From positions 1,635-65,634 of the forward strand of contig JAHHTR010000001.1 in assembly GCA_020024515.1 (NCBI GenBank): a stretch of DNA of 64,000 bases, in the 5' to 3' direction. Made by a program: the position numbers and the translations under genes. Source of the stretch: Angelakisella sp. (GTDB taxonomy: Bacteria > Bacillota > Clostridia > Oscillospirales > Ruminococcaceae). Positions 2,884-16,516 of the stretch are shown piece by piece; the first letter of the stretch is position 1, and each line of letters starts with the position of its first letter. Below the pieces are notes generated by a model, which worked only from the letters and a program-made list of their open reading frames with translations, was not told the origin of the DNA and made no database searches.

Positions 2884-3053
2884 AGAAACAAATCCTCCTT
2901 CCATTTGTGATTAGCTGTAGCTAACTTAATTCTATTATAGCGGTTTCTACTTTGATTCTCTACAACCTTTTAGGTATATTGATACTCCAATCAGACAAGA
3001 GTAAAAACCACAAGAAAGGGTGGTCTGCAACAGTCACCCTCCCAAATAAATGA

Positions 3054-4682: not shown

Positions 4683-4715
4683 AGTATAACTTTCCTTTCT
4701 TAATATGAATTATTT

Positions 4716-5498
4716 TTATATGTACAGCGGTGATTGTATAACCCCGCTTGCATCCAGTAGTACTTTGCTGTATTCATTCTTGAACACATTCACATCGCCA
4801 GAAAAGTTGACCTGTTCGATCAGCCTGGAGGATCGCATTACTAGGATCTCATCCGCCACGACGAGTGCAAGTTCCATGTCATGTGTAATGAAAATTAAGG
4901 TAAAGCCCACTATCTTATGCAGTTTTATGATTTCCTCGATAATTTTCTTACGTAGCGGTAAGTCAAACCCATTTGTAGCTTCATCAAAAATCAGGCACTC
5001 CGGCTCCGCTGCTAACGCTCTTGCAATTGCCACACGCTTTTGCTCACCCCCAGATAGTTCGGATGGCAGGCGTGCATAGTAGTTTATAGGAAGGTTACAA
5101 AGGGTCATAAGCTCCTCACATCGTTGTTTTCGCTTTGAGCGATTCATATGAAAGAAGCAGACCAATGGCTCCTCGATAGATTTCCCGATGGATATTTTGG
5201 GGTCAAGTGCAGAAGCGGAATTTTGCTGTATGATCTGTACTTTCTTAAAGTAGTTTCTATCTACTTTATATCTACCTTTGTAGATGGCAATGCCATCTAT
5301 CAGCACATTGCCGCCACTTGGTCTTTGAAGTCCGGCAATCATCCGAGCTAATGTTGTTTTTCCTGAACCGGATTCCCCCACAATCGCATACCGACCTCCA
5401 TCTCGAAAAGTAACGCTTATGGGAGAAACAGCCATAAAGCGGTCTTTTTCAAGCACCCCACCAGAAAAAGAACAACTAAGACTCTGTACTTCAATCAT
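4716..5498 (-). CDS. ABC importer ATP-binding protein (OppF/NikE-like)
   Basis: Walker A GESGSGKTT, signature LSGGEQKR, Walker B CLIFDEAT. Start overlaps the stop of the preceding ATPase gene. Confidence 0.85.
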   Translation of the reverse strand: MIEVQSLSCSFSGGVLEKDRFMAVSPISVTFRDGGRYAIVGESGSGKTTLARMIAGLQRPSGGNVLIDGIAIYKGRYKVDRNYFKKVQIIQQNSASALDPKISIGKSIEEPLVCFFHMNRSKRKQRCEELMTLCNLPINYYARLPSELSGGEQKRVAIARALAAEPECLIFDEATNGFDLPLRKKIIEEIIKLHKIVGFTLIFITHDMELALVVADEILVMRSSRLIEQVNFSGDVNVFKNEYSKVLLDASGVIQSPLYI

Positions 5499-6273
5499 CT
5501 ACATTTCTCCTTTCCAGTTGACACGCACTCAGAAGATATTTTGTGTATTCCTGCATGGGGCATTTCATAATATTTTCTGTCTTGCCGGATTCCACCACTT
5601 TCCCGTGGTTCATTATGAGGATCCTGTCAGAAAACGCTGCCGTCCTCATATCATGGGTGACAAACAGCCCTGACATTCCTTCTTTGCACAAAGATCGCAA
5701 TTCTTTCATCAGTTCTATACGGTTACAGGCATCAATGGCAGTAGTTGCTTCATCTGCAATCAACAGCTGCGGTTGATTGACGAGAGCTGTCACTATCATA
5801 AGCCGTTGGAGCATACCGCCTGAAAGAGTGAACGGATAGCTTTTTAGAATCCGCTTTGTGTCTGTCAATCCAAGGCGATGCAGGGTTGCTTCAATCAAAT
5901 TGGTCATTTCTGTCCTTGTTGCCTTTATATGATGACGCAGATAGGTTTCTTCAATCTGTCTGCCAACACGGATAGATGGATTAAAGGCCGTCATTGGATT
6001 CTGCATAATACAGCAGATTTCTTTTCCATAAATCTGCCGCCGCTCTTTTGAAGGGAGCGACAGCAAATCTCTGTCCTTGAACAGGATTTCTCCCCTGGAT
6101 TGATAACCACTGCCCAGTAAGCCCATGATCGCTTTGCAGATGGTTGTTTTCCCGGCACCGGAGCTACCTACAATGGACAGTATTTCTCCTGGTGCAATTT
6201 GAAAGGCAATATGATCTACAATTGTTTCTCCCGAAGTGAGTGATACAGTAAGATTTCTGACTTCAAATAACAC
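5491..6273 (-). CDS. ABC importer ATP-binding protein (OppD/NikD-like)
   Basis: Walker A GSSGAGKTT, signature LSGGMLQR, Walker B LLIADEATT. Start moved to GTG 6273 (LFEVRNLTVSL...), which is preceded by GGAAAGGAGGA. The longer track ORF would overlap the permease gene by 83 nt. Confidence 0.85.
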   Translation of the reverse strand: MLFEVRNLTVSLTSGETIVDHIAFQIAPGEILSIVGSSGAGKTTICKAIMGLLGSGYQSRGEILFKDRDLLSLPSKERRQIYGKEICCIMQNPMTAFNPSIRVGRQIEETYLRHHIKATRTEMTNLIEATLHRLGLTDTKRILKSYPFTLSGGMLQRLMIVTALVNQPQLLIADEATTAIDACNRIELMKELRSLCKEGMSGLFVTHDMRTAAFSDRILIMNHGKVVESGKTENIMKCPMQEYTKYLLSACQLERRNVDD

Positions 6274-7081
6274 TAATATGATCCTCCTTTCCAATTGTAT
6301 CCCGCAGCCCTTCTCCCAATAAATTAAAACCAGCACAGCACACAATCAGGCAGATACCGGGATAAATAATCAGTGCAGGATTTGAATAAATGCTGTTACG
6401 TGCTTCATTCAGCATTGCACCCCATTCTGCAGTACCCTGAACCAAACCAACTCCTAAAAAAGCAAAACTTGATATGGACATAATAACCGACGCAATTCCT
6501 GTTGTAAAATACACAATAAATTGTGGCAGAACATTTGGAATCAGGTGAACCATTACAATCCGTATCCTTGACGCACCTGATGTTTTCGCTGCTTCTATAT
6601 ACTCCTTTCTGCACTCCATTTTTGCGTAAGAGCGAACCATCCTTAAAAACCATGCGGTCATAGATATACTAATTGCGGTGAGAATACAGGCTGTTGTATC
6701 CTCGAAAGAGGTTACTAAAGCCATTGCAATTACCAATACAGGGAATGCCATAAATATATCACATAGTAAACGAATGATTTCGTCCATAACACTGCCCTTA
6801 TAACATGAGTAACATCCTACAAACAGTGCGATTGCTGATAAGATAGCTAAAATAGGAACAGACAGTCCAAGGGAATATCTTGCTCCGTAAAGCAGTCTGG
6901 ATAGTTCACATCGTCCCAGCTGGTCACATCCCAAGGGGTATTCTGCTGATGGTGCGGCATTCTTCAATGCCAGATTGGTTACATTGGGGGCATGGGGTGC
7001 AAGGATAGGTGCACATATCGCCAATATCACAAAAATAGCAATCAGCAGGGATCCGAAGATTATTTGTCCTTTTCGTTTCAT
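6263..7081 (-). CDS. ABC importer permease (OppC/NikC/DppC-like)
   Basis: Multi-TM protein typical of binding-protein-dependent transport inner-membrane components. Start at ATG 7081 (MKRKGQIIFGSLL...) forms an ATGA overlap with the upstream permease stop. Confidence 0.85.
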   Translation of the reverse strand: MKRKGQIIFGSLLIAIFVILAICAPILAPHAPNVTNLALKNAAPSAEYPLGCDQLGRCELSRLLYGARYSLGLSVPILAILSAIALFVGCYSCYKGSVMDEIIRLLCDIFMAFPVLVIAMALVTSFEDTTACILTAISISMTAWFLRMVRSYAKMECRKEYIEAAKTSGASRIRIVMVHLIPNVLPQFIVYFTTGIASVIMSISSFAFLGVGLVQGTAEWGAMLNEARNSIYSNPALIIYPGICLIVCCAGFNLLGEGLRDTIGKEDHISVI

Positions 7082-8031
7082 ATTATTTCCCTCCTGTATG
7101 TCGGACAGATGATACCCGAAAGAATATCTGCCACGGTATTGAACAAGACAAATAGGATGGCACATACCAGAATGGATCCAGATATTCCGTAGATGTCCAT
7201 TCCCTCACATGATTTAATCAGATAACTGCCTAATCCATCAATAGAAAAAACTCTCTCAATCAATGCAGAAGTTCCAAACAGAGCTGCACTATACTGGGCC
7301 AAAAGCGTAATGGCAGCAGGCAGTGCATTTCTTAATACCTGTCCATACACAATTTGTGAATTGGAAAAACCTCTGGCTTTTGCATATACAACATAATCAC
7401 TTTTCAATTCGTTTAAGATAGATGCCCTAAGAACTCTTGTTGCAATACAGATAATTGGTACAGCCATCGAAATTGATGGCAGTATAAGTGATTTGAAACT
7501 TCCATCTGCAATCACATGAAAAAGTGGTATTTTAACTGCAAACACCGCCAAAAGTACCAAAGCCAGCCAAAAGCTGGGGACACAGATTCCGATAATACAA
7601 AGAACCCTCGTCACATTATCAAAAATTCCATCCTTCCGTATTACGGAAATCGCCGCTATCAGAACAGTAAATAATATCACCCAGACGATTGCCATAAGAA
7701 TCATTATGCAGGTGACCGGTAATGCATTCGCAATATTCTCTATAACAGGCTTTCGGTTTGTGATTGCGGTTCCCAAATCACCATGAAGGACACCTTTTAT
7801 ATAGTTGACATATCTTTCTGAAAAGGGGGCATCTAAGCCAAGGCTTTCCCGAACTGACTGCACCTGCTCATCTGTTGCAAAGACATTGTTCTTCCTGACA
7901 AGCATTTCCGCTGGGTCGGTTCCCGTGAAAAGCTGTAGGCTGAAACTTAATGTGACAACACTCAAAATGACAAGGATGAAATTGATGCTACGTATAGCAA
8001 TTTTTTTTGTGGTTTCTCCAGCAATTCGCAT
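7078..8031 (-). CDS. ABC importer permease (OppB/NikB/DppB-like)
   Basis: Multi-TM permease of about 317 aa, first gene of the importer block. Start at ATG 8031 (MRIAGETTKK...) preceded by TTGGAGGGA. Confidence 0.85.
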   Translation of the reverse strand: MRIAGETTKKIAIRSINFILVILSVVTLSFSLQLFTGTDPAEMLVRKNNVFATDEQVQSVRESLGLDAPFSERYVNYIKGVLHGDLGTAITNRKPVIENIANALPVTCIMILMAIVWVILFTVLIAAISVIRKDGIFDNVTRVLCIIGICVPSFWLALVLLAVFAVKIPLFHVIADGSFKSLILPSISMAVPIICIATRVLRASILNELKSDYVVYAKARGFSNSQIVYGQVLRNALPAAITLLAQYSAALFGTSALIERVFSIDGLGSYLIKSCEGMDIYGISGSILVCAILFVLFNTVADILSGIICPTYRREII

Positions 8032-8199
8032 GAAACATCCCTCCAAAGTTAGTTAGGTTAGGCTAACTATTGATTTAAAAAAAGCAGCCGCTTTTCAACG
8101 ACTGCTCTACAGCATACTCATCATTAGCATCTTAATTATTATAGCATACTAAAGTGGTGCATTCTATGACCGAACGGGTCGGTTTTTGCTCCGATCGGG

Positions 8200-9171
8200 T
8201 CAGCGATACTTGTGACGGTACACCTGTGGCGTTACGCCTATAACAGATTTGAAAGCGGCGGAAAACTTACTTTGGTTTTCGTATCCTGCCGTGTTCCCAA
8301 TCTCTCCGATACTCAAAGTCGGTTCATAAATCAACATTTCAGCAGCGGCCTCCATACGCTTTTCCTTAATAAATGTGCCAATAGGCGCTCCTGAAATAGA
8401 CTTAAAACACCGTTTTAAGCTGGATTCTGACAGTCCAAACATGTAGGACAGATCCTGAATTGTATCTCTGCAAAAAGGATTTTCAATGATGTATTGGTAA
8501 ACTTTCTGTGTTTGTTTGGATATATCCACAGAAAACTGCTGTGGTCGGCAAACAGCACTACCATCCAAAAGACTTAAAAACAGCAGTAGTTCGATGCTCT
8601 TAATCCAAAAATATGGACCTTGGATACGCTCATCTACTGAGTATAACTCACTAAAGATATGGTCAATTTCATGTTTGGACCTGATGATAAGGGAACGACC
8701 ATCCGTACACAGACGATCCCTTATTTGTTCCAAACAGATGTGTGCTTGTTGAAAGCCTTGATCTAAAGTTTGCTGTGCCGTTTCCATTTCTAACAACACA
8801 GTGACACCTCGATATTTTTTCAACGGAATATGAGAACCGAGAAATATCTGTTTATCTTTGGAGAGATAATCAACACAGAGGTCACCTTCGCCCAAAAAGC
8901 TGACTGATCCACCTTCCAGTTCACACTCATAGCATCCTTCCAAACAATGATTAATCTGCAAAAAATTTTTTTCAAATCGGATAGGACGGAAACAGGAGTC
9001 CATTTTTAAGTCATTATAGGTAATTTGAATACCAGGTGCAACCTCAAAACGCCGCATGGTTCCTTCGCCTGATTCATTTCCTTCGTGCAACACTCCTACT
9101 GCTGTTTCTGTCTCTATTCCAGTTTTATAAATATTATGAAATGTACCTGCTCCTCTAGTTACATCAAACAT
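8200..9171 (-). CDS. AraC-family transcriptional regulator
   Basis: C-terminal double HTH of AraC type (...IQDLSYMFGLSESSLKRCFKSISGAPIGTFIKEKRMEAAAEMLIYEPTLSIGEIGNTAGYENQSKFSAAFKSVIGVTPQVYR). N-terminal ligand-type domain of about 200 aa. Directly upstream of and co-oriented with the importer genes. Confidence 0.85.
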   Translation of the reverse strand: MFDVTRGAGTFHNIYKTGIETETAVGVLHEGNESGEGTMRRFEVAPGIQITYNDLKMDSCFRPIRFEKNFLQINHCLEGCYECELEGGSVSFLGEGDLCVDYLSKDKQIFLGSHIPLKKYRGVTVLLEMETAQQTLDQGFQQAHICLEQIRDRLCTDGRSLIIRSKHEIDHIFSELYSVDERIQGPYFWIKSIELLLFLSLLDGSAVCRPQQFSVDISKQTQKVYQYIIENPFCRDTIQDLSYMFGLSESSLKRCFKSISGAPIGTFIKEKRMEAAAEMLIYEPTLSIGEIGNTAGYENQSKFSAAFKSVIGVTPQVYRHKYR

Positions 9172-9388
9172 TGTGATCCTCCTAATTCAACCGTTTTTTT
9201 CTGATTTATAACATTAAATTATATCTTTTTTTGTGATAGAATTCAAGTCAGTTTCTTTGCCACTTTCGATAATGTGTAAGATTACAATAGATGTGTTATA
9301 GTATTGCAAAAAAAGTGACGAAATGAAAAATCTATGTTACAGTAAGTTTGCGACAACTAAACTGAAAGTGAGGAAAATCCATCTCGTC

Positions 9389-9818
9389 ATGAAAAGTGTA
9401 ACACAAACCTGTAAATATCGTCAAGCCTTAATTTTGTATTCCAAAAAATACGGAGTAACCAAAGCCACTGTAAGATACAGAACAAACCGTCAATATATCT
9501 ATCGTTGGTTAAAACGGTATGATGGTACATTGCAGTCTTTATCTGACAAATCTCACCGTCCACATCATCACCCAAACGAACATACAACATAAATTAATCC
9601 GTCCATTTACACTCCGACATAACGGTAAAGCAGAACGTAGTCACCGTAAAGATAACGAATATTTTTATGCAACACATAAATTTTATTCGTTTGATGACTT
9701 TAAAAAGCAACTTGCTCTACATAACAGAAAGTACAATAATTTTCCTATGCGTCCTCTAAATTGGCCTTCTCCTGCTGATTACATCAACTCTTTTTTAACA
9801 ACAGAAGAAGTTTTCTGA
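9389..9818 (+). pseudogene. Remnant of an rve-integrase (IS481/IS3-superfamily) transposase lacking the catalytic core
   Basis: N-terminal HTH part (MKSVTQTCKYRQALILYSKKYGVTKATVRYRTNRQYIYRWLKRYDG...SHRPHHHPNEHT) stops at 9592. A different frame carries only the extreme C-terminus of rve transposases (IQHKLIRPFTLRHNGKAERSHRKDNEYFY...NNFPMRPLNW). The two parts abut at about 9580-9595, so the DDE core of roughly 170-200 aa is absent. Confidence 0.6.
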
Positions 9819-9972
9819 TTTTGTAACACATCATTAACAAACCTACATTATCATTAAAATATTTCATCATATGAAATACATGTTTTGAATTCAAAATAAG
9901 GATAGAATTAACCTGTAAACATATAAATTATAATTTAACTTAAAATAATTCCAATTATCATAATATTTTATA

Positions 9973-10000
9973 TTGACATATTAAATATTATTGTTATAAT
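9973..10000 (+). promoter_or_regulatory. Consensus sigma-A type promoter (TTGACA-16 nt-TGtTATAAT)
   Basis: TTGACA at 9973-9978 and TATAAT at 9995-10000, with a TG extended -10 at 9992-9993. Lies 94 nt upstream of ATG 10094. Confidence 0.5.
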
Positions 10001-10011
10001 AGTATTAAATA

Positions 10012-10023
10012 GAACAAATGTTC
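10012..10023. promoter_or_regulatory. LexA (Cheo/SOS) box GAACAAATGTTC
   Basis: Matches the Firmicutes SOS-box core GAAC-N4-GTTC exactly, 12 nt downstream of the -10 element. A degenerate second copy AAAC-ATTT-GTTT lies within 10038-10051. Confidence 0.45.
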
Positions 10024-10093
10024 TAAAATGCTACTATAAAACATTTGTTTTGAAAAATTAATTTTAGTATAGTTTTAATAGGAGGAATAATAT

Positions 10094-10658
10094 ATGAAAA
10101 AAGATAGTAAACGAATCAGTAATATTAAATGTATATACTCAGATAAAGAAATGGATTATAAAAAAAATATACTATAAGACAAAATTACTTTTATCTATAT
10201 ATAGAAATATTGTATGGCAATCTTTAAATGCAAATGACAATATATATGATGATATAATTGCTATAAATGCAGATTTTTACAGTAATGAGTTAAATACTGC
10301 TCTTACATATCTGACAGATTTTGCTCCGACTGAGGAAAGAACAATTTTTGAAAATCGTATAAATTCTTTATTTAAAACTAAATAGATAATAGAACTTATT
10401 GATAAAGCTATGTATAAAGTGTATTTATATTATGATAATGGTGAAATATATCATCAACTTTTAACAATGAAATATCTTTCATCTTATAAATATACTGAAA
10501 ATAAAATATTAGATATTCTTCATATGGAACGCAGTACATATTACAGAAAGAAAAAAGAAGCCATAATGCTTTTAGGAATATCACTTTTGGGATACTCAAT
10601 TCCCGAAATGAAAAAGTCTTTAAACAATGTAGCAAATTTAAAAATTAATTGTAATTAG
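10094..10658 (+). pseudogene. Disrupted small HTH / sigma-region-4-like regulator (phage or mobile-element type)
   Basis: GGAGGA RBS and ATG at 10094. The frame stops at TAA 10175 after an A8 run (10160-10167). One A fewer would fuse it to a frame that reads ...KLLLSIYRNIVWQSLN...TEERTIFENRINSLFKTK, then in-frame TAG at 10383. The same frame continues IIELIDKAMYKVYLYYDNGEIYHQLLTMKYL...ILDILHMERSTYYRKKKEAIMLLGISLLG, a C-terminal HTH of the ...STYYR.K.EA... type. Confidence 0.45.
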
Positions 10659-11484
10659 GACCTGTTAACACTAATTGACAAAAAAATTTTTATGTTGTAG
10701 AATAAAAATATGGAAATAACAAAAGAACAATACGAGCAGATAGAGAAATATTTACCTCGGCAACGTGGTAACGTAAGCATGAGCAACCTCCAACTGATCA
10801 ATGCGCTGCTGTATATCACCGAAAACGGCTGCAAATGGAGAGCATTGCCGGAAAAATACGGGAATTGGCATACAATTTATGTACGTTGAACAGATGGAGC
10901 AAAAATGGTGTATTGCAACGTTTATTTGAGGCACTGCAATCAGAGGGTATCATCAAAATCAAAGTAAATACCATTTGCCTTGACAGCACTACGGTAAAAG
11001 TTCACCCGAATGGAACAGGAGCGTTAAAAAAAGAGGAAAACAGTCTGTAGGATGTTCACAGGGTGGACTGACCACAAAAATTCATATGATTACCGCATCT
11101 GACAGAGCAGTTGTTGAATTCTCGTTATCCGGAGGGGAAACGCATGACTCACCGGAAGGAATAGCTTTACTTAAACGTATGAAATGGCAGAACAGGCAGA
11201 CATATATTTTAATGGATCGTGCATATGAAGGGGATAAAATGCGTTTAACAGCAGTAGAAAGAGGTTTTATTCCTGTTGTTCCTCCAAAAAGTAACCGTAA
11301 AGAGCCGTGGGAATATGATAAAGAACGTTATAAGCAACGCAATGAAATTGAACGCTGTTTTCTTAGGTTAAAACGCTTTCGTAAGATTTTTACCCGCTAT
11401 GATAAGCTTGATGTGATGTTTTCCGGTTTTATTTTCTTAGCTATTGTTTTTGATACAATTTTAGGGTGAACACACTCTAATTAC
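10651..11484 (+). mobile_element. IS5-family insertion sequence (IS427/IS1031-like organisation); boundaries approximate
   Basis: Imperfect terminal inverted repeats: GTAATTAGGACCTGTTAACAC (10651-10671) against the reverse complement of 11464-11484, GTAATTAGAGTGTGTTCACCC (15/21 identical). The palindromic hexamer TAATTA sits at both junctions (10652-10657, 11478-11483). Encloses the transposase frames listed next. Confidence 0.55.
10710..11469 (+). pseudogene. IS5-family DDE transposase split over three frames
   Basis: Frame a: MEITKEQYEQIEKYLPRQRGNVSMSNLQLINALLYITENGCKWRALPEKYGNWHTIYVR, then TGA at 10887. Frame b: LNRWSKNGVLQRLFEALQSEGIIKIKVNTICLDSTTVKVHPNGTGALKK, reaching the A7G run at 11026-11033. 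Frame c: RGKQSVGCSQGGLTTKIHMITASDRAVVEFSLSGGETHD...MDRAYEGDKMR...RNEIERCFLRLKRFRKIFTRYDKL. The combined sequence is a typical IS5-family protein. Confidence 0.7.
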
Positions 11485-11654
11485 CTTCTTAAAAATATTT
11501 ATTTTCGAAGTATAACAAAAAAGCCTGTAAACTGCTACTATAAGCTAGTTTACAAGCTTTATATCTTTCATTAGTGTATAAAAAAGTTATCATTTAAAAT
11601 TTAGCTAAGCTTTCAAAAAATAGTTAGTATTATATTATACTCTTTATAACGTGA

Positions 11655-11692
11655 GAACAAAAAAATAGACGTGAACAATACTTTGCTCACGT
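11655..11692 (-). terminator. Intrinsic terminator of the tRNA-Pro unit
   Basis: Minus-strand RNA ACGUGAGC-AAAGUAUU-GUUCACGU (8 bp including one G-U) followed by CUAUUUUUUUG. Confidence 0.6.
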
Positions 11693-11714
11693 CCCACAAA
11701 CGGCGGTTCGCCGT

Positions 11715-11790
11715 TGGTCTGAGTGACCTGATTTGAACAGGCGACCTCTACCACCCCAAGGTAGCGCGCTACCATCTGCGCCACACCCAG
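11715..11790 (-). tRNA. tRNA-Pro (anticodon GGG), CCA encoded
   Basis: Hand-folded 76-nt cloverleaf: acceptor CTGGGTG/CACTCAG, D stem GCGC/GCGC and anticodon stem CTACC/GGTAG. The loop TTGGGGT gives anticodon GGG with G37. T stem GCCTG/CAGGT with loop TTCAAAT, discriminator A, then CCA. Confidence 0.9.
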
Positions 11791-11835: not shown

Positions 11836-12124
11836 GATAAAAATCTATTCTATACCCCCACTGTTTAAAAATATTTCTTATTTTTTTGCTTTTGATTTTA
11901 ACTTAACAATAAAAAATATATAGTAACCACATTATTCAGTTAAATCATTAAAGTGTCACTAACTATATAATATATTTATTAATCACTTTATAAAACAAAT
12001 TACATATATACTGTAAGCTATTAATTATTTGAGTAAATCTATCTAATAAAACTAATATTTTTTAAAGTTTTTTAGTCATTTTTAGCTAAAATAAAGAAAC
12101 AGCTAAAAAGTTTTAAAAAAAAGC

Positions 12125-12151
12125 TAAAGTTTTGATTTTTAGTGTCGAATT
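12125..12151 (+). promoter_or_regulatory. Sigma-28 (SigD/FliA)-type promoter upstream of flagellin
   Basis: TAAA (12125-12128), exactly 15 nt, then GTCGAATT (12144-12151). Compared with the consensus TAAA-N15-GCCGATAT, 5/8 positions match in the -10 element and the CGA core is kept. Confidence 0.5.
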
Positions 12152-12271: not shown

Positions 12272-13135
12272 ATGGTTATTCAACACAATACTATGGCTAT
12301 GAACGCTCACCGTTCACTAATAGGTAACAACAGCATGGTTCAAAAGAACCTAGAAAAACTATCAAGCGGTTACCGTATCAACCGCGCAGGCGATGACGCC
12401 GCAGGTCTTGCTATTTCAGAAAAAATGAGAGCACAAATCAAAAACTTGGAGCAATCACAAAGAAACGCGCAAGACGGTGTTTCTCTTATTCAAACAGCCG
12501 AGGGTGCGCTAACAGAGGTGCACTCAATGCTAAACCGAATGGTTGAACTAGTTACCCAAGCTTCTAACGGTACATACACCGCCGAAGACCTTAACTCTAT
12601 AAAGTCTGAGACCGACTCGTTGGTAAATGAGATTGACCGTATCGTTGGCGACACGAATTTCAACGGCAAAAAGGTTCTAGACCTTACTACCGTGAAAGAC
12701 CTCAAAATCCAAGTGGGAGACGGAACTAACGCGGTAATTCAGCTATCCGACCTCTCAAAAGTTTACGTAGGGGCCGACTCCTACTCAGCGGTGGACTGCT
12801 CAACCCTCAAACTGACCGGAAGTGCAATCTTCTCAGGATCAAACTCATCGACAACGCTAAATTCAAGCGCCCTGGGAACCGTCCAAAATGCGATTAAGGC
12901 AATTTCAGACCTACGCTCAAAATTTGGTGCTTACCAAAATCGTTTGGAACATACGATAAATAACTTAGGGACAACGACGGAAAACTTGACAGCTTCTGAG
13001 AGCCGTATCCGTGACTCCGATATGGCTAAAGAGATGATGGCATTCACAAAGAACAACGTCCTATCCCAGGCGGCTCAGAGTATGCTAGCTCAGTCCAACC
13101 AGCAACCTCAACAGATCCTCCAGCTTCTAAGATAA
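12272..13135 (+). CDS. fliC: Flagellin (short, 287 aa)
   Basis: Conserved N-terminus (MVIQHNTMAMNAHRSLIGNN...LSSGYRINRAGDDAAGLAISEKMRAQIKNLEQSQRNAQDGVSLIQTAEGAL) and C-terminus (...FGAYQNRLEHTINNLGTTTENLTASESRIRDSDMAKEMMAFTKNNVLSQAAQSMLAQSNQQPQQILQLLR). Strong RBS. Confidence 0.95.
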   Translation: MVIQHNTMAMNAHRSLIGNNSMVQKNLEKLSSGYRINRAGDDAAGLAISEKMRAQIKNLEQSQRNAQDGVSLIQTAEGALTEVHSMLNRMVELVTQASNGTYTAEDLNSIKSETDSLVNEIDRIVGDTNFNGKKVLDLTTVKDLKIQVGDGTNAVIQLSDLSKVYVGADSYSAVDCSTLKLTGSAIFSGSNSSTTLNSSALGTVQNAIKAISDLRSKFGAYQNRLEHTINNLGTTTENLTASESRIRDSDMAKEMMAFTKNNVLSQAAQSMLAQSNQQPQQILQLLR

Positions 13136-13180
13136 TTTTTTAACCGCTGGAGTTTAACTGCATATTATAAAATGATAAGG

Positions 13181-13211
13181 CCACAGGCAATGCACTGCCT
13201 GTGGTTCTTTT
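13181..13211 (+). terminator. Intrinsic terminator after flagellin
   Basis: CCACAGGCA-ATGCAC-TGCCTGTGG (9-bp perfect stem) followed by TTCTTTT. Confidence 0.7.
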
Positions 13212-13263: not shown

Positions 13264-15303
13264 TTGACTAAACTTGAACTTGCGCGTAAATGCGCAGAAA
13301 TCGGTGATTTTGAAAATTCAGTAAATGCCTATACACTTGCGCTCAAAGAAAACGAACATAAAGATACCCTTGTTGACTTTGAATGTGCGATGTATATATT
13401 GCAGTTTGGTGAGGACTACAAGTTGTCTTATGATACATTTATATATCTTTACAATAATGGTCTGTATCAAAAAGAAATATTTGATGTGATGGTAACATCA
13501 TTCTATGCGCCGAATATGTCGCAACTGACAGAACAATTTGATGCCAATATAAAAAATCTAAATAAATATAAGTTCATATTCAATAAAAGTTTTATAGATT
13601 TCGATGATTTAAAGATTAAATTCTTTCCTTATGACGACAATCACTTTATTCCGTTTTATACAGAAAAAAACCAATTTGGTGAAAAAATCAATTTTAATTA
13701 CGAAGAAATTACGCATAACTTCTTCTCTGATTTAGAAAATCCTATTCTTGCCAAAGATATTTATTCGCAATATGAGCTTGAATATCTAAATGATAATGTT
13801 CGTAAAAGCGAATGGGTAGGCAGAGAAAATCATATATATTTACACTATACCGATTTTGCCGAATTTTGCTCATATTTACAGGTAATCAATTTCACCGATA
13901 TGCTGAAAGAGAAAAAACTTGTCTTTTTGTTTGATGAAGAAATTGAGATGTATCCGATTGACTTTAAAGAAATGTTCGATATTGATTATTCCAAATATCC
14001 GTTAAAACCGCTAAGTGTCAAAGAAGTTAATAAACTTATTTGGGCTGTTCAACTTTCTTCATCGAATGGTGGTGACTTTTTTAACGAAGTACTGGACTCC
14101 CACCCCAATATTTTACTGATACATTCATTAATGCATTACAATTTGGAAAAAATAATAAATGCAAAAAATCGATACATATCGCAAGATACATCTTTAAATA
14201 TATCTGAAGGATTAAATGATACTAGTTTCAATTTTAATATAAGCAAATACCTAAAAAAATACAGAGACAGTCTAACAGAAAAAGATGTTCTTGTTGCCTA
14301 TGCGCTTGGGCAAAATAAGTTTCACGACAGAGCGTCACGCATTGTTCCCGCTGTATATTTTCAACCTCACTTTCATAATCTTGAAACAGATTTAATTGAG
14401 TATGATGAAAAAGGAATAATATCTATTACAGAAGGAATTGAAAACACAGTACTTAACTATCCTTTTATAAAGCAATTCAAATATATAAAAACATTTACAC
14501 CTTTGAGAAGAATGACAACATCCTATTCTTCTACTATGAGATTTATAGCACAACAATTTGAAGACCTTTCTAAAAATTTATCAATTTTCAATCTCTCCAT
14601 AAGATGTATGATAAGAACATATATGATAAGCAAAAGTGAACGAGTATACAGAGACTCTAGGGTGGTACGTTACGAAGACGGCAAGCTGAATCCGGAGGCT
14701 ACGTTTACAGCCTTGGCTCAATTTTTGGATATTCCGTATACGGATACTATGAAATATTGCTCGCGATACGGAAAAGTTGATGCCGAATCTGACCCTACAA
14801 GTCTTGTAGGCTTTGATACCCGATCGGTTTTCAGAAAATACGAGGAATTTGTTGATCCAGAAGAACAGTATATGCTGGAATATATGCAACAAAACGCATA
14901 TAAAGAATATAAATATGACTTTCAATATTATGACGGCAAAGAAATTACAGAACAGAAAGCCGAACAATTAATCGAAGGGTGTCATAAACAACAGTCCATG
15001 GTTTGTGACAGAATGAAAGAATTTTTAAAGCAACGAGACGATAAATATAAATTATTTGATATATTAATAAACGGAAGAATATTATTTGCTCCTTCCATAA
15101 CATACGAAAACGAAGATGAACGTTTGGAAGATATTGACAAATTAGCTAAAAAATATTATAAATTTCACACTGACAAACTAAAAGAAATATTGATGACAAT
15201 TGACCCAAATGCAAGGGTAATTGATGAGAACGGTGACGATAAGGTGTTTATGAAACTTCTTGAACCTATTGAAGAACTAATGGTTGAGCCACTGTATCAC
15301 TAA
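13264..15303 (+). CDS. Large protein of unknown function with a sulfotransferase-like C-terminal half
   Basis: 679-aa ORF with a TTG start 8-9 nt after AAGGAG. Motifs resemble PAPS-sulfotransferases: QLSSSNGGDFFNEVLDSHPNIL (5'-PSB-loop position), PLRRMTTSYSS (3'-PB position) and RVVRYEDGKLNPEATFTALAQFLDIPY (typical C-terminal segment). I cannot assign the N-terminal 250 aa or so. Confidence refers to the functional call. The ORF itself is solid. Confidence 0.4.
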   Translation: MTKLELARKCAEIGDFENSVNAYTLALKENEHKDTLVDFECAMYILQFGEDYKLSYDTFIYLYNNGLYQKEIFDVMVTSFYAPNMSQLTEQFDANIKNLNKYKFIFNKSFIDFDDLKIKFFPYDDNHFIPFYTEKNQFGEKINFNYEEITHNFFSDLENPILAKDIYSQYELEYLNDNVRKSEWVGRENHIYLHYTDFAEFCSYLQVINFTDMLKEKKLVFLFDEEIEMYPIDFKEMFDIDYSKYPLKPLSVKEVNKLIWAVQLSSSNGGDFFNEVLDSHPNILLIHSLMHYNLEKIINAKNRYISQDTSLNISEGLNDTSFNFNISKYLKKYRDSLTEKDVLVAYALGQNKFHDRASRIVPAVYFQPHFHNLETDLIEYDEKGIISITEGIENTVLNYPFIKQFKYIKTFTPLRRMTTSYSSTMRFIAQQFEDLSKNLSIFNLSIRCMIRTYMISKSERVYRDSRVVRYEDGKLNPEATFTALAQFLDIPYTDTMKYCSRYGKVDAESDPTSLVGFDTRSVFRKYEEFVDPEEQYMLEYMQQNAYKEYKYDFQYYDGKEITEQKAEQLIEGCHKQQSMVCDRMKEFLKQRDDKYKLFDILINGRILFAPSITYENEDERLEDIDKLAKKYYKFHTDKLKEILMTIDPNARVIDENGDDKVFMKLLEPIEELMVEPLYH

Positions 15304-15315
15304 GGAGAAAAAACT

Positions 15316-15846
15316 ATGAAAAAAGTAAAACAAGGTACATTTTATGGCTTTATCGGACTTGCGGGTGTTGGTAAGACAGAAATGGCTATGCGTCTATATG
15401 ATTATTTGAAAAGTCAAAGAAACGATGTTGTTTTTTTTGACGGAGATATATTGCGTGATGTGGAGTATACTGTTTGCGGATACACACGTCAAGAAAGAGT
15501 AGAGGACAGCTTTCATTTTAATAAAATGATAAAGCTTTTGCTCGACCAAGGTATAAATATCGTTTATTCCACAATAGGACTTTTTGACGAAGTTATGGAA
15601 TGGCAATATCAAAATTATGAAAACTATGTCGAAATATACATTACTACTCCTATGGAAATTTTGAAAAAGAATAATAAGAAAAATCTTTATAGCGGAGAGA
15701 TTAAAGATGTTATAGGTATGGATATACCATTCGATGAGCCTAAACACACAACTTGCCATGTATATAACGATTTTACAAAAGACCCACAGCAGATAGTTGA
15801 AGACATAATAAAAGAACTTCGTGAAAAAGGCAAACTAATTGTATAG
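15316..15846 (+). CDS. Adenylylsulfate (APS) kinase-like P-loop protein
   Basis: P-loop GLAGVGKTE, then FDGDILR (CysC LDGDxxR), GYTRQERVED (CysC GFSxxDRxEN) and KNLYSGEIKDVIGMDIPFDEP (CysC KGLY...GIDxxYExP). AAGGAG RBS, 12 nt after the previous stop. Confidence 0.55.
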   Translation: MKKVKQGTFYGFIGLAGVGKTEMAMRLYDYLKSQRNDVVFFDGDILRDVEYTVCGYTRQERVEDSFHFNKMIKLLLDQGINIVYSTIGLFDEVMEWQYQNYENYVEIYITTPMEILKKNNKKNLYSGEIKDVIGMDIPFDEPKHTTCHVYNDFTKDPQQIVEDIIKELREKGKLIV

Positions 15847-15857
15847 GAGCAAATATT

Positions 15858-16460
15858 TTGAGTAATTATATCTTTCTTTTTGATTTGGATTCAACCATTA
15901 CAAGCGAAGAAATTTTGCCGACAATATCCAAAAAAATTAACCAAGAGACGGAAATGCGTGAACTCACAGAAAAAACAATGAGTGGAGATATACCTTTTAA
16001 TCCAAGTTTTTTACAGAGAGTAGATTTATTAAAAGATATTCCAATTACAGAAGTTCAGGATATTGTCAGTAATATAAAACTAAATAGTCATATTGTAGAT
16101 TTTATTCAAAACAACAAAGAAAGATGCTATATCGTTACAGGAAATCTTGATGTTTGGATTTTGCCCCTGATGAAAAAAATCGGTATGGAAAATCGCTTTT
16201 TTTCATCAAAAGCATTGGTAAAAGATAATAAATTGCAACAAGTTACTCATATAATAGAAAAGCAAACCGTTGTAAATATGTTTTCATCTCCTTTTGTTGC
16301 CATTGGTGATGGTGTTAACGATATCGCTATGATTAGTAATGCCAAAATAGGCATTGCCTATGCAGGTGTGCGACAAATATCAACTGCTGTTGTTAACTGC
16401 GCCACACATATATTCTATGAAGAAAACAAAATGTGTGAATTTCTAGAAACACTATTATAA
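15858..16460 (+). CDS. HAD-superfamily subfamily IB hydrolase (SerB/phosphoserine-phosphatase-like)
   Basis: Motif I FLFDLDSTIT and motif IV GDGVNDIAM. Cap region typical of the SerB-like subfamily. TTG start after AGGAG, 11 nt after the previous stop. Confidence 0.7.
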   Translation: MSNYIFLFDLDSTITSEEILPTISKKINQETEMRELTEKTMSGDIPFNPSFLQRVDLLKDIPITEVQDIVSNIKLNSHIVDFIQNNKERCYIVTGNLDVWILPLMKKIGMENRFFSSKALVKDNKLQQVTHIIEKQTVVNMFSSPFVAIGDGVNDIAMISNAKIGIAYAGVRQISTAVVNCATHIFYEENKMCEFLETLL

Positions 16461-16482: not shown

Positions 16483-16516
16483 ATCCCCAAGTGTATTTAT
16501 TTATACATTTGGGGAT
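16483..16516. terminator. Bidirectional terminator between convergent genes
   Basis: ATCCCCAAGTGTAT-TTATTT-ATACATTTGGGGAT (14-bp stem with one wobble), flanked by an A-run on the left and a T-rich tract on the right. Confidence 0.6.

What the first reader, a model, noticed from the sequence alone, without database searches (positions are those of the whole stretch)
13264..16460. Flagellin-adjacent cassette: sulfotransferase-like giant protein + APS-kinase-like protein + SerB-like HAD, a candidate novel flagellin modification system
**Seen.** Three co-oriented genes with 12- and 11-nt gaps follow the terminator-bounded flagellin gene and end at a bidirectional terminator.

1. A 679-aa protein whose C-half has three segments in the order and style of PAPS sulfotransferases:
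   - QLSSSNGGDFFNEVLDSHPNIL, against the usual xRSGTTLLxxxLxxHPxI;
   - PLRRMTTSYSS, against RxPxDxxxSxY;
   - RVVRYEDGKLNPEATFTALAQFLDIPY, against vrYEDLvxdPextlxxlxxFLgl.
2. A 176-aa P-loop protein with the APS kinase (CysC) motif series: GLAGVGKT, FDGDILR, GYTRQERVED and KNLY...GMDIPFDEP.
3. A HAD-IB SerB-like phosphatase: DLDST and GDGVND.

No glycosyltransferase, Maf/DUF115 or nonulosonic-acid gene is present.

**Established.**
- Genes directly 3' of fliC in Clostridia commonly encode flagellin post-translational modification enzymes. As I recall, the C. difficile 630 type A locus includes a phosphoserine-phosphatase-like HAD.
- APS kinase makes PAPS, the donor for sulfotransferases.

**Inference.** The cassette may install a sulfate-containing or related phospho-ester modification on flagellin or on its glycan. 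I am not aware of this as a described bacterial flagellin modification.

**Caveats.**
- The basic residue of the 5'-PSB loop seems absent, so the large protein may use a different donor.
- No ATP sulfurylase is in the window.
- The extreme AT-richness and the IS/tRNA neighbourhood would also fit an unrelated horizontally acquired cassette.
Basis: partly seen in the sequence, partly recalled or inferred. Interest (0 to 1): 0.7.

Follow-up and report, generated by a model that had tools for sequence, protein, structure and literature searches.

The report
Flagellin-linked transferase and nucleotide 3'-kinase cassette
Next to a flagellin gene sits a three-gene cassette from a large, unannotated family of gut Clostridia systems that probably decorate flagellin using "PAPS-like" 3'-phosphorylated nucleotide donors; in this window the group added is probably not sulfate.

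Summary
Three co-oriented genes with 12- and 11-nt gaps lie between the flagellin terminator and a bidirectional terminator.

- **Transferase (679 aa).** The model is confident (pLDDT 88). Its C-half has a sulfotransferase fold, closest to tyrosylprotein sulfotransferases. It belongs to a family with no Pfam domain (>1,700 clusters).
- **Kinase (176 aa).** It belongs to the APS-kinase superfamily but falls in NCBIfam PRK05541. That subfamily also holds the orthologue of C. jejuni Cj1415, the enzyme that makes 3'-phospho-CDP-amidate. It fails the canonical APS-kinase model.
- **HAD.** It is a HAD-IB enzyme 35% identical to M. jannaschii phosphoserine phosphatase.
- **Synteny.** Flagellin lies directly upstream of the transferase in 49 of 53 assessable loci. 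The kinase lies directly downstream in 65 of 66.
- **Variable third genes define the donor.** They include ATP sulfurylase, cytidylyltransferase–PEP mutase, CDP-ribitol-type genes, methyltransferase fusions, a full O-methyl-phosphoramidate pathway, and a PHP phosphatase of the 3',5'-bisphosphonucleoside type.
- **Kinases track these classes.** Only the sulfurylase-linked ones look like true APS kinases.

Verdict: this is a real, apparently undescribed flagellin-associated group-transfer system. In this window the transferred group is unknown. A phosphoryl-type group is more likely than sulfate.

The parts
12272..13135 (+). Flagellin gene (287 aa), the presumed acceptor.
   Evidence: Flagellin_N 1.8e-42 and Flagellin_C 1.8e-28. 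Homologues of the transferase have a flagellin directly upstream in 49 of 53 assessable loci.
13179..13206 (.). Intrinsic-terminator-like hairpin after the flagellin gene, scored on both strands.
   Evidence: 11-pair stem with 6 G-C pairs, followed by a T-rich tail.
13264..15303 (+). 679-aa transferase with no Pfam domain. Layout: helical N-part (aa 1-101), alpha/beta domain (about aa 118-250), sulfotransferase-fold domain (about aa 252-560), helical C-terminal extension.
   Evidence: AF2 model with pLDDT 88.4 and pTM 0.89. Foldseek PDB top hits are TPST1/2, CurM/OLS sulfotransferase domains, Stf9 and 3-OST. More than 1,766 clusters at 90% identity, none with a precomputed Pfam domain and the few that are named all called hypothetical. 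632 clusters at 50% identity.
14026..14943 (+). Sulfotransferase-fold core of the transferase. Conserved motifs: SSSNGGDFFNEVLDSHPNIL (PSB-like loop plus HPN), QPHF, TPLRRMTTS (3'-phosphate-binding-like), RVVRYEDGKLNPEATFTALAQFLDIPY.
   Evidence: Invariant columns N268 G269 G270 D271 H280 P281 N282 Q367 P368 H369 F370 R415 E471 D472 and others. The motifs are conserved in every donor class. Sub-threshold Sulfotransfer_3 hit, E 0.009, aa 417-494.
15316..15846 (+). 176-aa P-loop kinase of the APS-kinase superfamily, PRK05541 subfamily (the one that holds the Cj1415 orthologue). Presumed nucleotide ribose-3'-OH kinase that makes the 3'-phosphorylated donor.
   Evidence: Pfam APS_kinase 5.6e-18. 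NF004041 scores 142 bits against a cut-off of 127, while TIGR00455 apsK scores 71 against 138.7. 35% identity, E 2e-29, to the C. jejuni Cj1415 orthologue, which scores 291 bits on NF004041. It has STIGLF where APS kinases have ISPY, and a lid deletion.
15858..16460 (+). 200-aa HAD-IB enzyme resembling phosphoserine phosphatase. Its role is open: phospho-amino-acid handling, or a substitute for the PHP phosphatase.
   Evidence: TIGR01488 scores 71 bits against 45; serB TIGR00338 scores 92 against 144; ThrH 42 bits. Best PDB match is M. jannaschii PSP 1F5S, E 5e-21. DxDST, GDGxND and PSP residues E20, M43, F49, R56 are conserved in WIN, L001 and L011.
16483..16516 (.). Bidirectional terminator-like hairpin that closes the cassette and the convergent RNase J-like gene.
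   Evidence: 14-pair stem, with an A-run upstream and a T-run downstream.

Best explanation
The cassette is one subtype of a widespread, unannotated flagellin-associated modification system of gut Clostridia that works on the logic of PAPS.

1. **Kinase.** The small P-loop kinase phosphorylates the ribose 3'-OH of a nucleotide-activated group (NDP-X or NMP-X).
2. **Transferase.** The 679-aa enzyme binds that 3'-phospho-nucleotide donor in its sulfotransferase-fold domain. It transfers the activated group to a hydroxyl of flagellin, or of a flagellin glycan, and releases a 3',5'-bisphosphonucleoside.
3. **Donor-defining genes.** Across the family, the variable genes that follow define the transferred group. 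These are ATP sulfurylase (sulfate), cytidylyltransferase-PEP mutase (phosphonate), CDP-ribitol-type genes (ribitol phosphate), Cj1416-1418 homologues plus a methyltransferase (O-methyl phosphoramidate), and kinase-methyltransferase fusions.
4. **By-product removal.** A PHP phosphatase of the 3',5'-bisphosphonucleoside-phosphatase family probably clears the by-product.

In this window the kinase is of the Cj1415-containing subfamily (non-APS), and no sulfurylase or nucleotidyltransferase is present. The donor is therefore most likely built from a housekeeping nucleotide. The transferred group is most likely a phosphoryl-type group (phosphate or a phosphodiester-linked small molecule) rather than sulfate. 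The phosphoserine-phosphatase-like HAD could handle a phospho-amino-acid moiety, as FtaA does in C. difficile type A. Alternatively it could replace the PHP phosphatase.

**Shown:** folds and families, synteny, and co-variation of kinase type with accessory genes. **Inferred:** 3'-phosphorylation of the donor, flagellin as acceptor, and the identity of the group.
For: - **Fold.** The C-half has a sulfotransferase fold, with tyrosylprotein sulfotransferases as best matches. An Arg/Ser-rich motif (TPxRRxTTS) sits where sulfotransferases bind the 3'-phosphate of PAPS. That motif and the YEDxxxxP motif are invariant.
- **Obligate partner.** The kinase is directly downstream in 65 of 66 loci, 21 of them as kinase-methyltransferase fusions.
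- **Flagellin link.** Flagellin is directly upstream in 49 of 53 loci (examples).
- **Kinase subfamily.** The window kinase passes NF004041/PRK05541 at 142 bits. The C. jejuni Cj1415 orthologue scores 291 on the same model. Cj1415-1418 make CDP-phosphoramidate 3'-phosphate, described as 'the likely donor' (PMC11800397). The window kinase fails apsK.
- **Kinases track accessory class.** Sulfurylase-linked kinases group with solved APS kinases and score best on apsK (131-135 bits). All others, including the window kinase, are PRK05541-like. The window kinase scores 112-135 bits against the best member of each cytidylyltransferase-, methyltransferase- or PHP-linked class. It scores 94 against the Cj1415 orthologue, 72-77 against solved APS kinases, and 59 against sulfurylase-linked kinases.
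- **Natural experiment (L092/L093).** A homologue of the window transferase (28% identity over 561 aa, E 1e-68) is followed by homologues of Cj1415 (41%), a Cj1420-like methyltransferase (48%), Cj1418 (42% over 787 aa), Cj1417 (30%) and Cj1416 (32%), then a PHP gene. It sits where C. jejuni has its DUF2972 MeOPN transferase.
- **Other donor sets.** A genuine PEP mutase fused to a cytidylyltransferase (TIGR02320 at 399 bits against a cut-off of 320); such fusions make CMP-phosphonates (PMC6697681). Also Rpe + IspD/TarI-like + Zn-ADH, and ATP sulfurylase.
- **PHP accessory.** Its best NCBIfam hit is 3',5'-nucleoside bisphosphate phosphatase, and its best PDB relatives include 2YB1.
- **Window content.** No Sat, nucleotidyltransferase, PHP or Cj1416-1418 homologue anywhere in the 64 kb.
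Against: - Nothing here is biochemical. No donor, product or modified flagellin has been observed.
- The transferase scores below Pfam's sulfotransferase thresholds (16.7 bits against 27). Foldseek TM-scores are modest (TMt 0.36-0.48).
- The transferase family shows no detectable sequence homology to the genetically defined MeOPN transferases (hhalign probability <1%).
- In the window's own subclade flagellin is directly upstream only in WIN and L001. L011 has a flagellin 6 kb away. L012 and L094 have none within 6.5-10 kb upstream.
- The cassette lacks any enzyme to make a nucleotide-X precursor, so the donor is undefined.
- The nucleotide-site motifs are the same in sulfurylase-linked and cytidylyltransferase-linked loci, which leaves base specificity unexplained.
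- The class-to-kinase tree is a neighbour-joining tree on short sequences.
Confidence: 0.6

Rival explanations
1. Genuine PAPS-dependent sulfation in this window. The kinase is a divergent APS kinase fed by an ATP sulfurylase encoded elsewhere in the genome. The large protein O-sulfates flagellin, and the HAD removes the 3'-phosphate of PAP.
For: - Sulfotransferase fold, with protein-tyrosine sulfotransferases as the best matches.
- The kinase is in the APS_kinase Pfam family.
- Sister loci L060, L066 and L075 really carry flagellin + transferase + kinase + ATP sulfurylase.
- The transferase motifs in those loci are the same as in the window.
Against: - The window kinase scores 71 bits on apsK (cut-off 138.7) but passes PRK05541.
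- It lacks the ISP(Y) and RExNIxR signatures that the sulfurylase-linked kinases keep.
- Of all classes it is least similar to those kinases (59 bits, 30% identity), and it clusters away from them.
- No sulfurylase is in the window, nor in the parts of L001 and L011 (same subtype) that were annotated.
- The HAD keeps phosphoserine-type substrate residues rather than looking like a nucleotidase.
Confidence: 0.15
2. The system is real, but in this subtype the acceptor is not flagellin. It could be another surface protein or a cell-wall polymer, and the adjacency to flagellin in the window would be inherited position rather than function.
For: - In the window's subclade, three of five loci (L011, L012, L094) lack a flagellin directly upstream.
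- The flagellin gene has its own terminator.
- The distant relative L092 has no flagellin remnant in the 168 bp upstream.
- Related chemistry in C. jejuni targets capsule sugars.
Against: - Family-wide adjacency is 49 of 53 loci, across many different flanking contexts.
- WIN and L001 keep the flagellin-transferase junction.
- L011 still has a flagellin 6 kb away.
- No polysaccharide-synthesis genes lie nearby in the window's relative L001.
Confidence: 0.15
3. The HAD is an FtaA-like enzyme that makes a phospho-hydroxy-amino acid (for example phosphothreonine from phosphoserine). The cassette installs a phosphodiester-linked amino acid, a type-A-like modification made by non-homologous downstream enzymes. 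This is a sub-variant of the best explanation, not exclusive of it.
For: - The HAD is 35% identical to M. jannaschii PSP, with residues E20, M43, F49 and R56 conserved in all three members of the subtype.
- It gives a weak ThrH hit.
- In C. difficile the HAD FtaA is required for CDP-threonine, and the model derives phosphothreonine from phosphoserine (bioRxiv 10.64898/2026.02.12.704994).
Against: - Neither the cassette nor the window has an FtaB-like or other nucleotidyltransferase to activate the phospho-amino acid.
- No sequence of FtaA was available for direct comparison.
- The HAD occupies the position held by the PHP by-product phosphatase in other classes.
Confidence: 0.25
4. An unrelated, horizontally acquired cassette with no functional link among the three genes or to flagellin.
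For: IS fragments and a tRNA gene lie upstream of the flagellin gene, and the region is AT-rich.
Against: - The three genes are tightly spaced and each has its own RBS.
- The transferase-kinase pair is conserved in 65 of 66 loci.
- The trio recurs in L001 and in L011, the latter in a completely different neighbourhood.
Confidence: 0.02

Closest known systems
C. jejuni O-methyl phosphoramidate (MeOPN) capsule modification: Cj1415 (CDP-amidate 3'-kinase), Cj1416-1418, Cj1419/1420 methyltransferases, Cj1421/1422 transferases
   Same: - The kinase subfamily is shared: NF004041 scores 142 bits for the window kinase and 291 for the Cj1415 orthologue, and the two are 35% identical.
- The logic is the same: a 3'-phosphorylated nucleotide donor handed to a roughly 600-680-aa transferase.
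- A relative of the window transferase sits in a complete MeOPN-type gene set.
- The C. jejuni transferase model also gives sulfotransferases as its best fold matches, though weakly (E 0.065, probability 0.8-0.97).
   Different: - The transferases are not detectably homologous (DUF8374+DUF2972 against a Pfam-less family; hhalign probability <1%).
- The target there is capsule sugar; here it is presumably flagellin.
- The window lacks Cj1416-1418 and methyltransferase homologues, so the transferred group is not MeOPN.
PAPS-dependent sulfotransferases, especially tyrosylprotein sulfotransferases TPST1/2 and the Sulfotransfer_3 family, with the Sat/CysC PAPS pathway
   Same: - Same fold.
- xxHPxI, RxxxxS-type and YEDLxxxP-type motifs occur in the same order.
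- Both depend on a ribose-3'-kinase.
- Sister loci carry ATP sulfurylase plus an APS-kinase-like kinase.
   Different: - Scores are below the Pfam thresholds.
- The PSB loop reads HNGGD instead of (K/R)SGTT.
- There is an extra conserved N-terminal half of about 250 aa and a C-terminal helical extension.
- The window kinase is not of the APS-kinase type.
C. difficile type A flagellin post-glycosylation modification (FgtA + FtaABCD)
   Same: - It is a flagellin-adjacent operon.
- It includes a HAD (FtaA), uses CDP-activated donors, and yields a phosphodiester-linked product.
- A methyltransferase acts on the nucleotide-bound donor (bioRxiv 10.64898/2026.02.12.704994).
- A phosphonate (AEP) has also been seen on that glycan (PMC8861647).
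   Different: - Transfer there is by a TagF-like CDP-alcohol phosphotransferase (FtaD), with no 3'-phosphorylation step.
- It needs a glycosyltransferase and FtaB; no counterpart of these was seen near the window cassette.
- Homology of the HAD to FtaA could not be tested.
PHP-family 3',5'-nucleoside bisphosphate phosphatases (NF041577; PDB 2YB1)
   Same: The PHP genes that accompany the transferase-kinase pair in most non-sulfurylase classes have these as best matches. That fits release of a pNp by-product.
   Different: - They are absent from the window, where a HAD-IB takes the same position.
- Scores are below the equivalog cut-off (165-188 bits against 400).

Membership tests
PAPS sulfotransferase (Pfam Sulfotransfer_1/3) | Sulfotransferase alpha/beta fold. 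| tested here: met
   Foldseek against the PDB: 10 hits at E<=1e-3, all tyrosylprotein sulfotransferases, followed by CurM/OLS ST domains, Stf9 and 3-OST. The query model has pLDDT 88.
PAPS sulfotransferase (Pfam Sulfotransfer_1/3) | Profile score above Pfam's gathering threshold. | tested here: not met
   Sulfotransfer_3 scores 16.7 bits against 27, covering only the C-terminal motif. A family profile against PDB sequences finds only TEG12, at E 2.5.
PAPS sulfotransferase (Pfam Sulfotransfer_1/3) | 5'-phosphosulfate-binding loop with a basic residue and Ser/Thr ((K/R)xGTT). | tested here: not met
   The loop reads (H/S)NGGD in the core family, including the sulfurylase-linked members. Distant members have SG(T/N)xF.
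PAPS sulfotransferase (Pfam Sulfotransfer_1/3) | 3'-phosphate-binding Arg/Ser motif. | tested here: inconclusive
   TPxRRxTTS has R415 invariant and R416, T418 and S420 at >=90% conservation. Distant members have (I/V)R(D/R)P. The equivalence rests on motif order, not on a residue-level structural superposition.
PAPS sulfotransferase (Pfam Sulfotransfer_1/3) | PAPS supply (ATP sulfurylase + APS kinase) available. | tested here: inconclusive
   No sulfurylase is in the 64-kb window, and the rest of the genome was not available. It is present next to relatives in L060, L066 and L075.
APS kinase CysC (TIGR00455 apsK) | P-loop plus DGD motif of the APS_kinase superfamily. | tested here: met
   GLAGVGKT and FDGDILR are present. 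Pfam APS_kinase 5.6e-18. Best PDB hits are APS kinases.
APS kinase CysC (TIGR00455 apsK) | Equivalog score and substrate-site signatures (ISPY, LGFS...R..N.RR). | tested here: not met
   71 bits against a cut-off of 138.7. It has STIGLF and ERVEDSFHF instead, plus a lid deletion.
PRK05541 / NF004041 kinases (subfamily holding the orthologue of Cj1415, CDP-amidate 3'-kinase) | Score above the NCBIfam cut-off, and similarity to the orthologue of the characterised member. | tested here: met
   142.3 bits against 127. The Cj1415 orthologue scores 291 bits. Pairwise identity is 35%, E 2e-29.
PRK05541 / NF004041 kinases (subfamily holding the orthologue of Cj1415, CDP-amidate 3'-kinase) | Phosphorylates the 3'-OH of a cytidine diphospho-X substrate. 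| not testable with these tools
   This needs an enzyme assay. Contextual support: relatives are linked to cytidylyltransferases.
MeOPN transferases Cj1421/Cj1422 (DUF8374 + DUF2972) | Sequence homology to DUF2972 proteins. | tested here: not met
   hhalign of the family profiles gives probability 0.07-0.6%. There is no PF11186 hit. The apparent HNGGG/HNGGD match was a false lead, at residue 28 against residue 267.
HAD-IB phosphatases / phosphoserine phosphatase SerB | HAD motifs (DxDST, GDGxND) and the HAD-IB subfamily score. | tested here: met
   TIGR01488 scores 71.3 bits against 45. The motifs are present.
HAD-IB phosphatases / phosphoserine phosphatase SerB | SerB equivalog score. | tested here: not met
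   TIGR00338 scores 92.3 bits against 144.15. There is a 14-residue deletion relative to M. jannaschii PSP, although E20, M43, F49 and R56 are kept.
C. difficile type A system (FgtA, FtaABCD) | Glycosyltransferase, FtaB, a methyltransferase and a TagF-like phosphotransferase next to fliC. | tested here: inconclusive
   No such genes appear in the Pfam list of the syntenic relative L001, and the cassette has only three genes. No Fta sequences were available for a direct search.

The most novel reading that the evidence does not exclude
The 679-aa protein founds an unannotated superfamily of sulfotransferase-fold 'sulfuryl/phosphoryl-group transferases'. Each is paired with a dedicated CysC-like 3'-kinase. 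Together they use 3'-phosphorylated, mostly cytidine-based nucleotide donors to write a donor-defined chemical mark onto the flagellins of gut Clostridia. The mark could be sulfate, phosphonate, phosphoramidate, alditol phosphate or a methylated variant. The window's minimal HAD subtype would take a housekeeping nucleotide and install a bare phosphate or a phospho-amino acid directly on flagellin Ser, Thr or Tyr. That would be a route to protein O-phosphorylation or phosphoesterification unrelated to protein kinases.
Probability: 0.4. Interest if true: 0.9.

Novelty: new variant of a known kind. Interest (0 to 1): 0.8.

Why it matters
- **Medical relevance.** Flagellins of gut Clostridia are dominant antigens in Crohn's disease and ligands of TLR5. 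Many of the related contigs come from human gut metagenomes, and single clusters hold up to about 2,000 member sequences. An unrecognised, chemically diverse layer of flagellin modification would bear on immune recognition, phage attachment and motility.
- **Mechanism.** It would generalise the PAPS principle (3'-phosphorylate the nucleotide carrier, then transfer with a sulfotransferase-fold enzyme) from sulfate to phosphoryl-type groups.
- **Open questions it addresses.** It would explain why C. jejuni 3'-phosphorylates CDP-amidate. It would also supply candidate transferases for CMP-phosphonates.
- **Annotation.** It gives a function to a Pfam-less family with more than 600 clusters at 50% identity.

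Tried and rejected
- **Fetching the C. jejuni capsule locus from genome contigs.** A published primer found nothing. A degenerate poly-G-flank pattern gave one chance hit in Methanoregula.
- **The HNGGG lead.** I suspected that the phase-variable HNGGG stretch of Cj1421/22 matches the HNGGD loop of the window protein. This is rejected: in C. jejuni it lies at residue ~28, in an unrelated N-terminal helix.
- **A chimeric peptide query** built from primer translations recovered only a 74-aa fragment. That fragment nevertheless led to the real locus.
- **Profile-profile comparison** of the transferase family with DUF2972 proteins gave no signal.
- **The DUF2972 model** was only moderately confident (pLDDT 65), so its sulfotransferase-like fold matches are weak.
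- **tblastn of the transferase against plasmids** gave no match.
- **Literature searches** linking flagellin to sulfotransferase, APS kinase, phosphoramidate or phosphonate biosynthesis turned up nothing describing this system.
- **Methyltransferase domains of the kinase fusions** are only generically similar to Cj1419/1420.
- **A sigma-28 pattern search** found nothing near the cassette.
- **Organism name.** It could not be obtained, because the exact-sequence look-ups return unnamed NCBI/Logan records.
- **'HAD is a housekeeping serB' is rejected.** The trio recurs in L011 in an unrelated neighbourhood.

Full report
**1. What is in the sequence**

One search confirms the three co-oriented ORFs at the stated coordinates:
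- 13264-15303, 679 aa, TTG start
- 15316-15846, 176 aa
- 15858-16460, 200 aa, TTG start

The gaps are 12 and 11 nt, and each gene has an AGGAG ribosome-binding site. The gene upstream (12272-13135) is a flagellin (Flagellin_N 1.8e-42, Flagellin_C 1.8e-28), followed by a terminator-like hairpin at 13179-13206. A 14-bp hairpin at 16483-16516 has an A-run on one side and a T-run on the other. It separates the cassette from a convergent RNase J-like gene.

The rest of the window is housekeeping DNA of a spore-forming Firmicute: Rnf, SMC, LeuRS, TopA and GerA. IS fragments and a tRNA-Pro gene lie upstream of the flagellin gene.

**2. The three proteins**

*The 679-aa protein.*
- It has no significant Pfam or NCBIfam hit. 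The only signal is a sub-threshold Sulfotransfer_3 match to its C-terminal motif (E 0.009).
- It belongs to a large family: more than 1,766 clusters at 90% identity. None has a precomputed Pfam domain, the few that are named are all called hypothetical, and those names point to Clostridiales, Dysosmobacter and Lawsonibacter. A profile search finds 632 clusters at 50% identity.
- An AlphaFold2 model built on 56 family members is confident (pLDDT 88.4, pTM 0.89). It shows a helical N-part, an alpha/beta domain, a core from about residue 252 to 560, and a helical tail.
- Foldseek against the PDB returns ten hits at E<=1e-3, all human or tick tyrosylprotein sulfotransferases. Polyketide sulfotransferase domains, Stf9 and heparan 3-O-sulfotransferase follow.
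They persist in recognisable form in distant members: SG(T/N)xF, HPxLLT, (I/V)RDP and VRFEDLKLNP.

*The 176-aa protein.*
- It is in the APS-kinase superfamily (Pfam 5.6e-18).
- NCBIfam places it in subfamily NF004041/PRK05541 (142 bits against a cut-off of 127). It scores only 71 bits on the canonical apsK model, whose cut-off is 138.7.

*The 200-aa protein.*
- It is a HAD-IB enzyme.
- It is 35% identical to M. jannaschii phosphoserine phosphatase (E 5e-21).
- It keeps residues E20, M43, F49 and R56. From my recollection of the published PSP structures, these hold the amino-acid part of phosphoserine.

**3. Conserved context**

Exact-protein look-ups showed flagellin, then transferase, then kinase in unrelated contigs, with different genes following.

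A metagenome scan then gave 80 further loci, which I annotated with local phmmer searches:
- Flagellin lies directly upstream in 49 of 53 loci with enough upstream sequence.
- The kinase lies directly downstream in 65 of 66 loci. In 21 of these it is fused to a methyltransferase.

What comes next varies:

| Next gene(s) | Loci / notes |
|---|---|
| PHP phosphatase | 19 loci directly after the kinase (15 after a kinase-methyltransferase fusion, 4 after a free-standing kinase); further downstream in others |
| IspD-type cytidylyltransferase | 8 loci |
| Rpe + IspD/TarI-like + Zn-dehydrogenase | A CDP-ribitol-type set |
| Cytidylyltransferase fused to a genuine PEP mutase (TIGR02320 399 bits against 320) | 8 loci, with phosphonopyruvate-decarboxylase-like and radical-SAM genes alongside |
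| Other nucleotidyltransferases and methyltransferases | Several loci |
| ATP sulfurylase | L060, L066, L075 |
| The HAD | Only the window's closest relatives, L001 and L011 |

In L011 the trio sits in a wholly different neighbourhood, so the HAD belongs to the cassette.

**4. The link to the C. jejuni phosphoramidate pathway**

I recovered a C. jejuni capsule locus (L010) through a fragment found with primer-derived peptides.

- Its Cj1415 orthologue scores 291 bits on NF004041 but fails the apsK cut-off.
- That orthologue is 35% identical to the window kinase (E 2e-29).
- Cj1415-1418 make CDP-phosphoramidate 3'-phosphate, described as the likely donor for the capsule modification. Deletion of Cj1421 or Cj1422 abolishes it (PMC11800397).
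- The C. jejuni transferases (DUF8374 + DUF2972) show no profile-level homology to the window family. A moderate-quality model of one still has sulfotransferases as its best fold matches, though weakly.

The decisive observation is L092/L093. A distant member of the window's transferase family (28% identity over 561 residues, E 1e-68) is followed by homologues of:
- Cj1415 (41%)
- a Cj1420-like methyltransferase (48%)
- glutamine kinase Cj1418 (42% over 787 residues)
- Cj1417 (30%)
- Cj1416 (32%)
- a PHP gene

The family thus occupies the place of the MeOPN transferase in an otherwise complete pathway whose end product is a 3'-phosphorylated cytidine donor.

**5. Kinase type follows donor type**

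- In a neighbour-joining tree, the sulfurylase-linked kinases group with solved APS kinases. They keep the ISP and RExNIxR signatures.
- All other kinases have (S/T)I(G/S/A)(L/M)(F/Y) instead, plus a short lid deletion. The window, L001 and L011 kinases form their own clade in this group.
- NCBIfam agrees. Sulfurylase-linked kinases score best on apsK (131-135 bits) and fail PRK05541 (102-106). The PEP-mutase-linked kinase scores 174 on PRK05541.
- The window kinase compared with each group:

| Compared with | Bits |
|---|---|
| Best member of each cytidylyltransferase-, methyltransferase- or PHP-linked class | 112-135 |
| Cj1415 orthologue | 94 |
| Solved APS kinases | 72-77 |
| Sulfurylase-linked kinases | 59 |

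- The transferase's nucleotide-site motifs, by contrast, are the same in every class.
- The PHP accessory has 3',5'-nucleoside bisphosphate phosphatase as its best NCBIfam hit, with 2YB1, 9ETK, 3E0F and 7UG9 as best PDB relatives. This fits a by-product of the pNp type.

**6. Interpretation**

The most economical reading is a modular system built on the PAPS principle. A nucleotide-activated group is 3'-phosphorylated by the kinase. The sulfotransferase-fold enzyme then transfers the group, and the bisphosphonucleoside is recycled.

*Family level.* Flagellin or its glycan is the likely acceptor, given the 49 of 53 adjacency. Some classes (the window, L001, L004) have no glycosyltransferase nearby, and the closest solved structures are protein-modifying sulfotransferases. 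Both points hint at direct modification of the polypeptide, but this is inference.

*The window itself.*
- The kinase type and the absence of a sulfurylase argue against sulfate.
- The absence of any nucleotidyltransferase or Cj1416-1418 homologue in the 64 kb means the precursor must come from general metabolism.
- The HAD's role is unresolved. It could handle a phospho-amino acid, as FtaA does in C. difficile type A. Or it could be a functional replacement for the PHP phosphatase, whose position it occupies.
- My rough odds for the transferred group: about 0.6 for a phosphoryl-type group, 0.15 for sulfate, and the rest unknown.

**7. Caveats**

- Everything rests on sequence, predicted structure and gene context.
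- In the window's own subclade, flagellin is directly upstream in only two of five loci.
- The tree is a simple distance tree.
- Residue-level equivalence of the putative 3'-phosphate site to that of sulfotransferases was not checked by superposition.
- How one nucleotide site would accept both adenine and cytosine donors is unexplained.
- The organism could not be named.

**8. Novelty**

The chemistry has precedents: PAPS sulfation, the proposed MeOPN donor, and CDP-dependent flagellin modification in C. difficile. I found no description of the following:
- this transferase family
- its obligate pairing with a CysC-like kinase
- its near-constant position beside flagellin genes
- its apparent range of donors

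I therefore rate it a new variant of a known kind, of high interest.

Noticed in passing
L092:169-7833 (also L093): A metagenomic contig carries homologues of the whole C. jejuni MeOPN pathway: Cj1415, Cj1416, Cj1417, Cj1418 and a Cj1420-like methyltransferase, at 30-48% identity. The transferase is a member of the window's family rather than a DUF2972 protein, and a PHP phosphatase follows. There is no flagellin remnant in the 168 bp upstream.
   Followed up: yes
L060:2-5064, L066:47-5067, L075:2548-8426: These loci carry flagellin + transferase + a kinase that looks like a true APS kinase + ATP sulfurylase (PF01747 + PUA_2). This is a complete PAPS-making set beside flagellin, and the best candidates for genuine flagellin sulfation.
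   Followed up: partly
L019, L028, L037, L051, L057, L063, L065, L083 (gene after the kinase): Cytidylyltransferase-PEP mutase fusions, including triple NTP_transf_3 + CTP_transf_like + PEP_mutase fusions, follow the kinase. In L057, a radical-SAM-cytidylyltransferase fusion, a TPP enzyme (phosphonopyruvate-decarboxylase-like) and LuxE/LuxC come next. This suggests phosphonate donors.
   Followed up: partly
21 loci, e.g. L004:10021-11175, L033:12003-13145: The kinase is fused to a class I (TehB-like) methyltransferase and is usually followed directly by the PHP phosphatase, with no nucleotidyltransferase. This is a second self-contained subtype whose donor is unknown.
   Followed up: partly
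P0126 (1328 aa, from the representative search): A GT2 glycosyltransferase domain is fused N-terminally to a full-length member of the transferase family.
   Followed up: no
L010:10001-11848 (C. jejuni DUF8374+DUF2972 protein, P0343): The predicted structure of a C. jejuni MeOPN-transferase-family protein has sulfotransferases (NDST1, SULT1C2, 2-OST) as its best PDB fold matches, though weakly (E 0.065-0.4; model pLDDT 65). By eye it carries HxSG..., LVRDPIERLK and I.YIDM..I.PE motifs.
   Followed up: partly
window 9323-11790: Transposase debris (rve_3 and DDE_Tnp_1 fragments, several short overlapping ORFs) and a tRNA-Pro(GGG) gene at 11715-11790 (-) lie between an AraC-type regulator (8200-9171) and the flagellin gene. 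In the related genome L001 this position holds EamA and DUF3810 genes instead.
   Followed up: partly
window 12117-12146: By eye there is a sigma-D/sigma-28-like promoter upstream of the flagellin gene (cTAAAgttttgatttttagtgTCGAATta). A strict pattern search did not pick it up, and no comparable site lies before the cassette.
   Followed up: no
window 1-9000 vs the rest: The G+C fraction is 0.40-0.46 in the first 9 kb (ABC/oligopeptide transporter genes and the AraC regulator). It is 0.26-0.41 (mostly 0.28-0.39) in the rest of the window. The step coincides with the IS debris.
   Followed up: no
L091:10001-13810: Two tandem distant paralogues of the transferase (639 and 624 aa) sit next to a methyl-accepting chemotaxis protein gene, with no kinase within 10 kb.
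   Followed up: no
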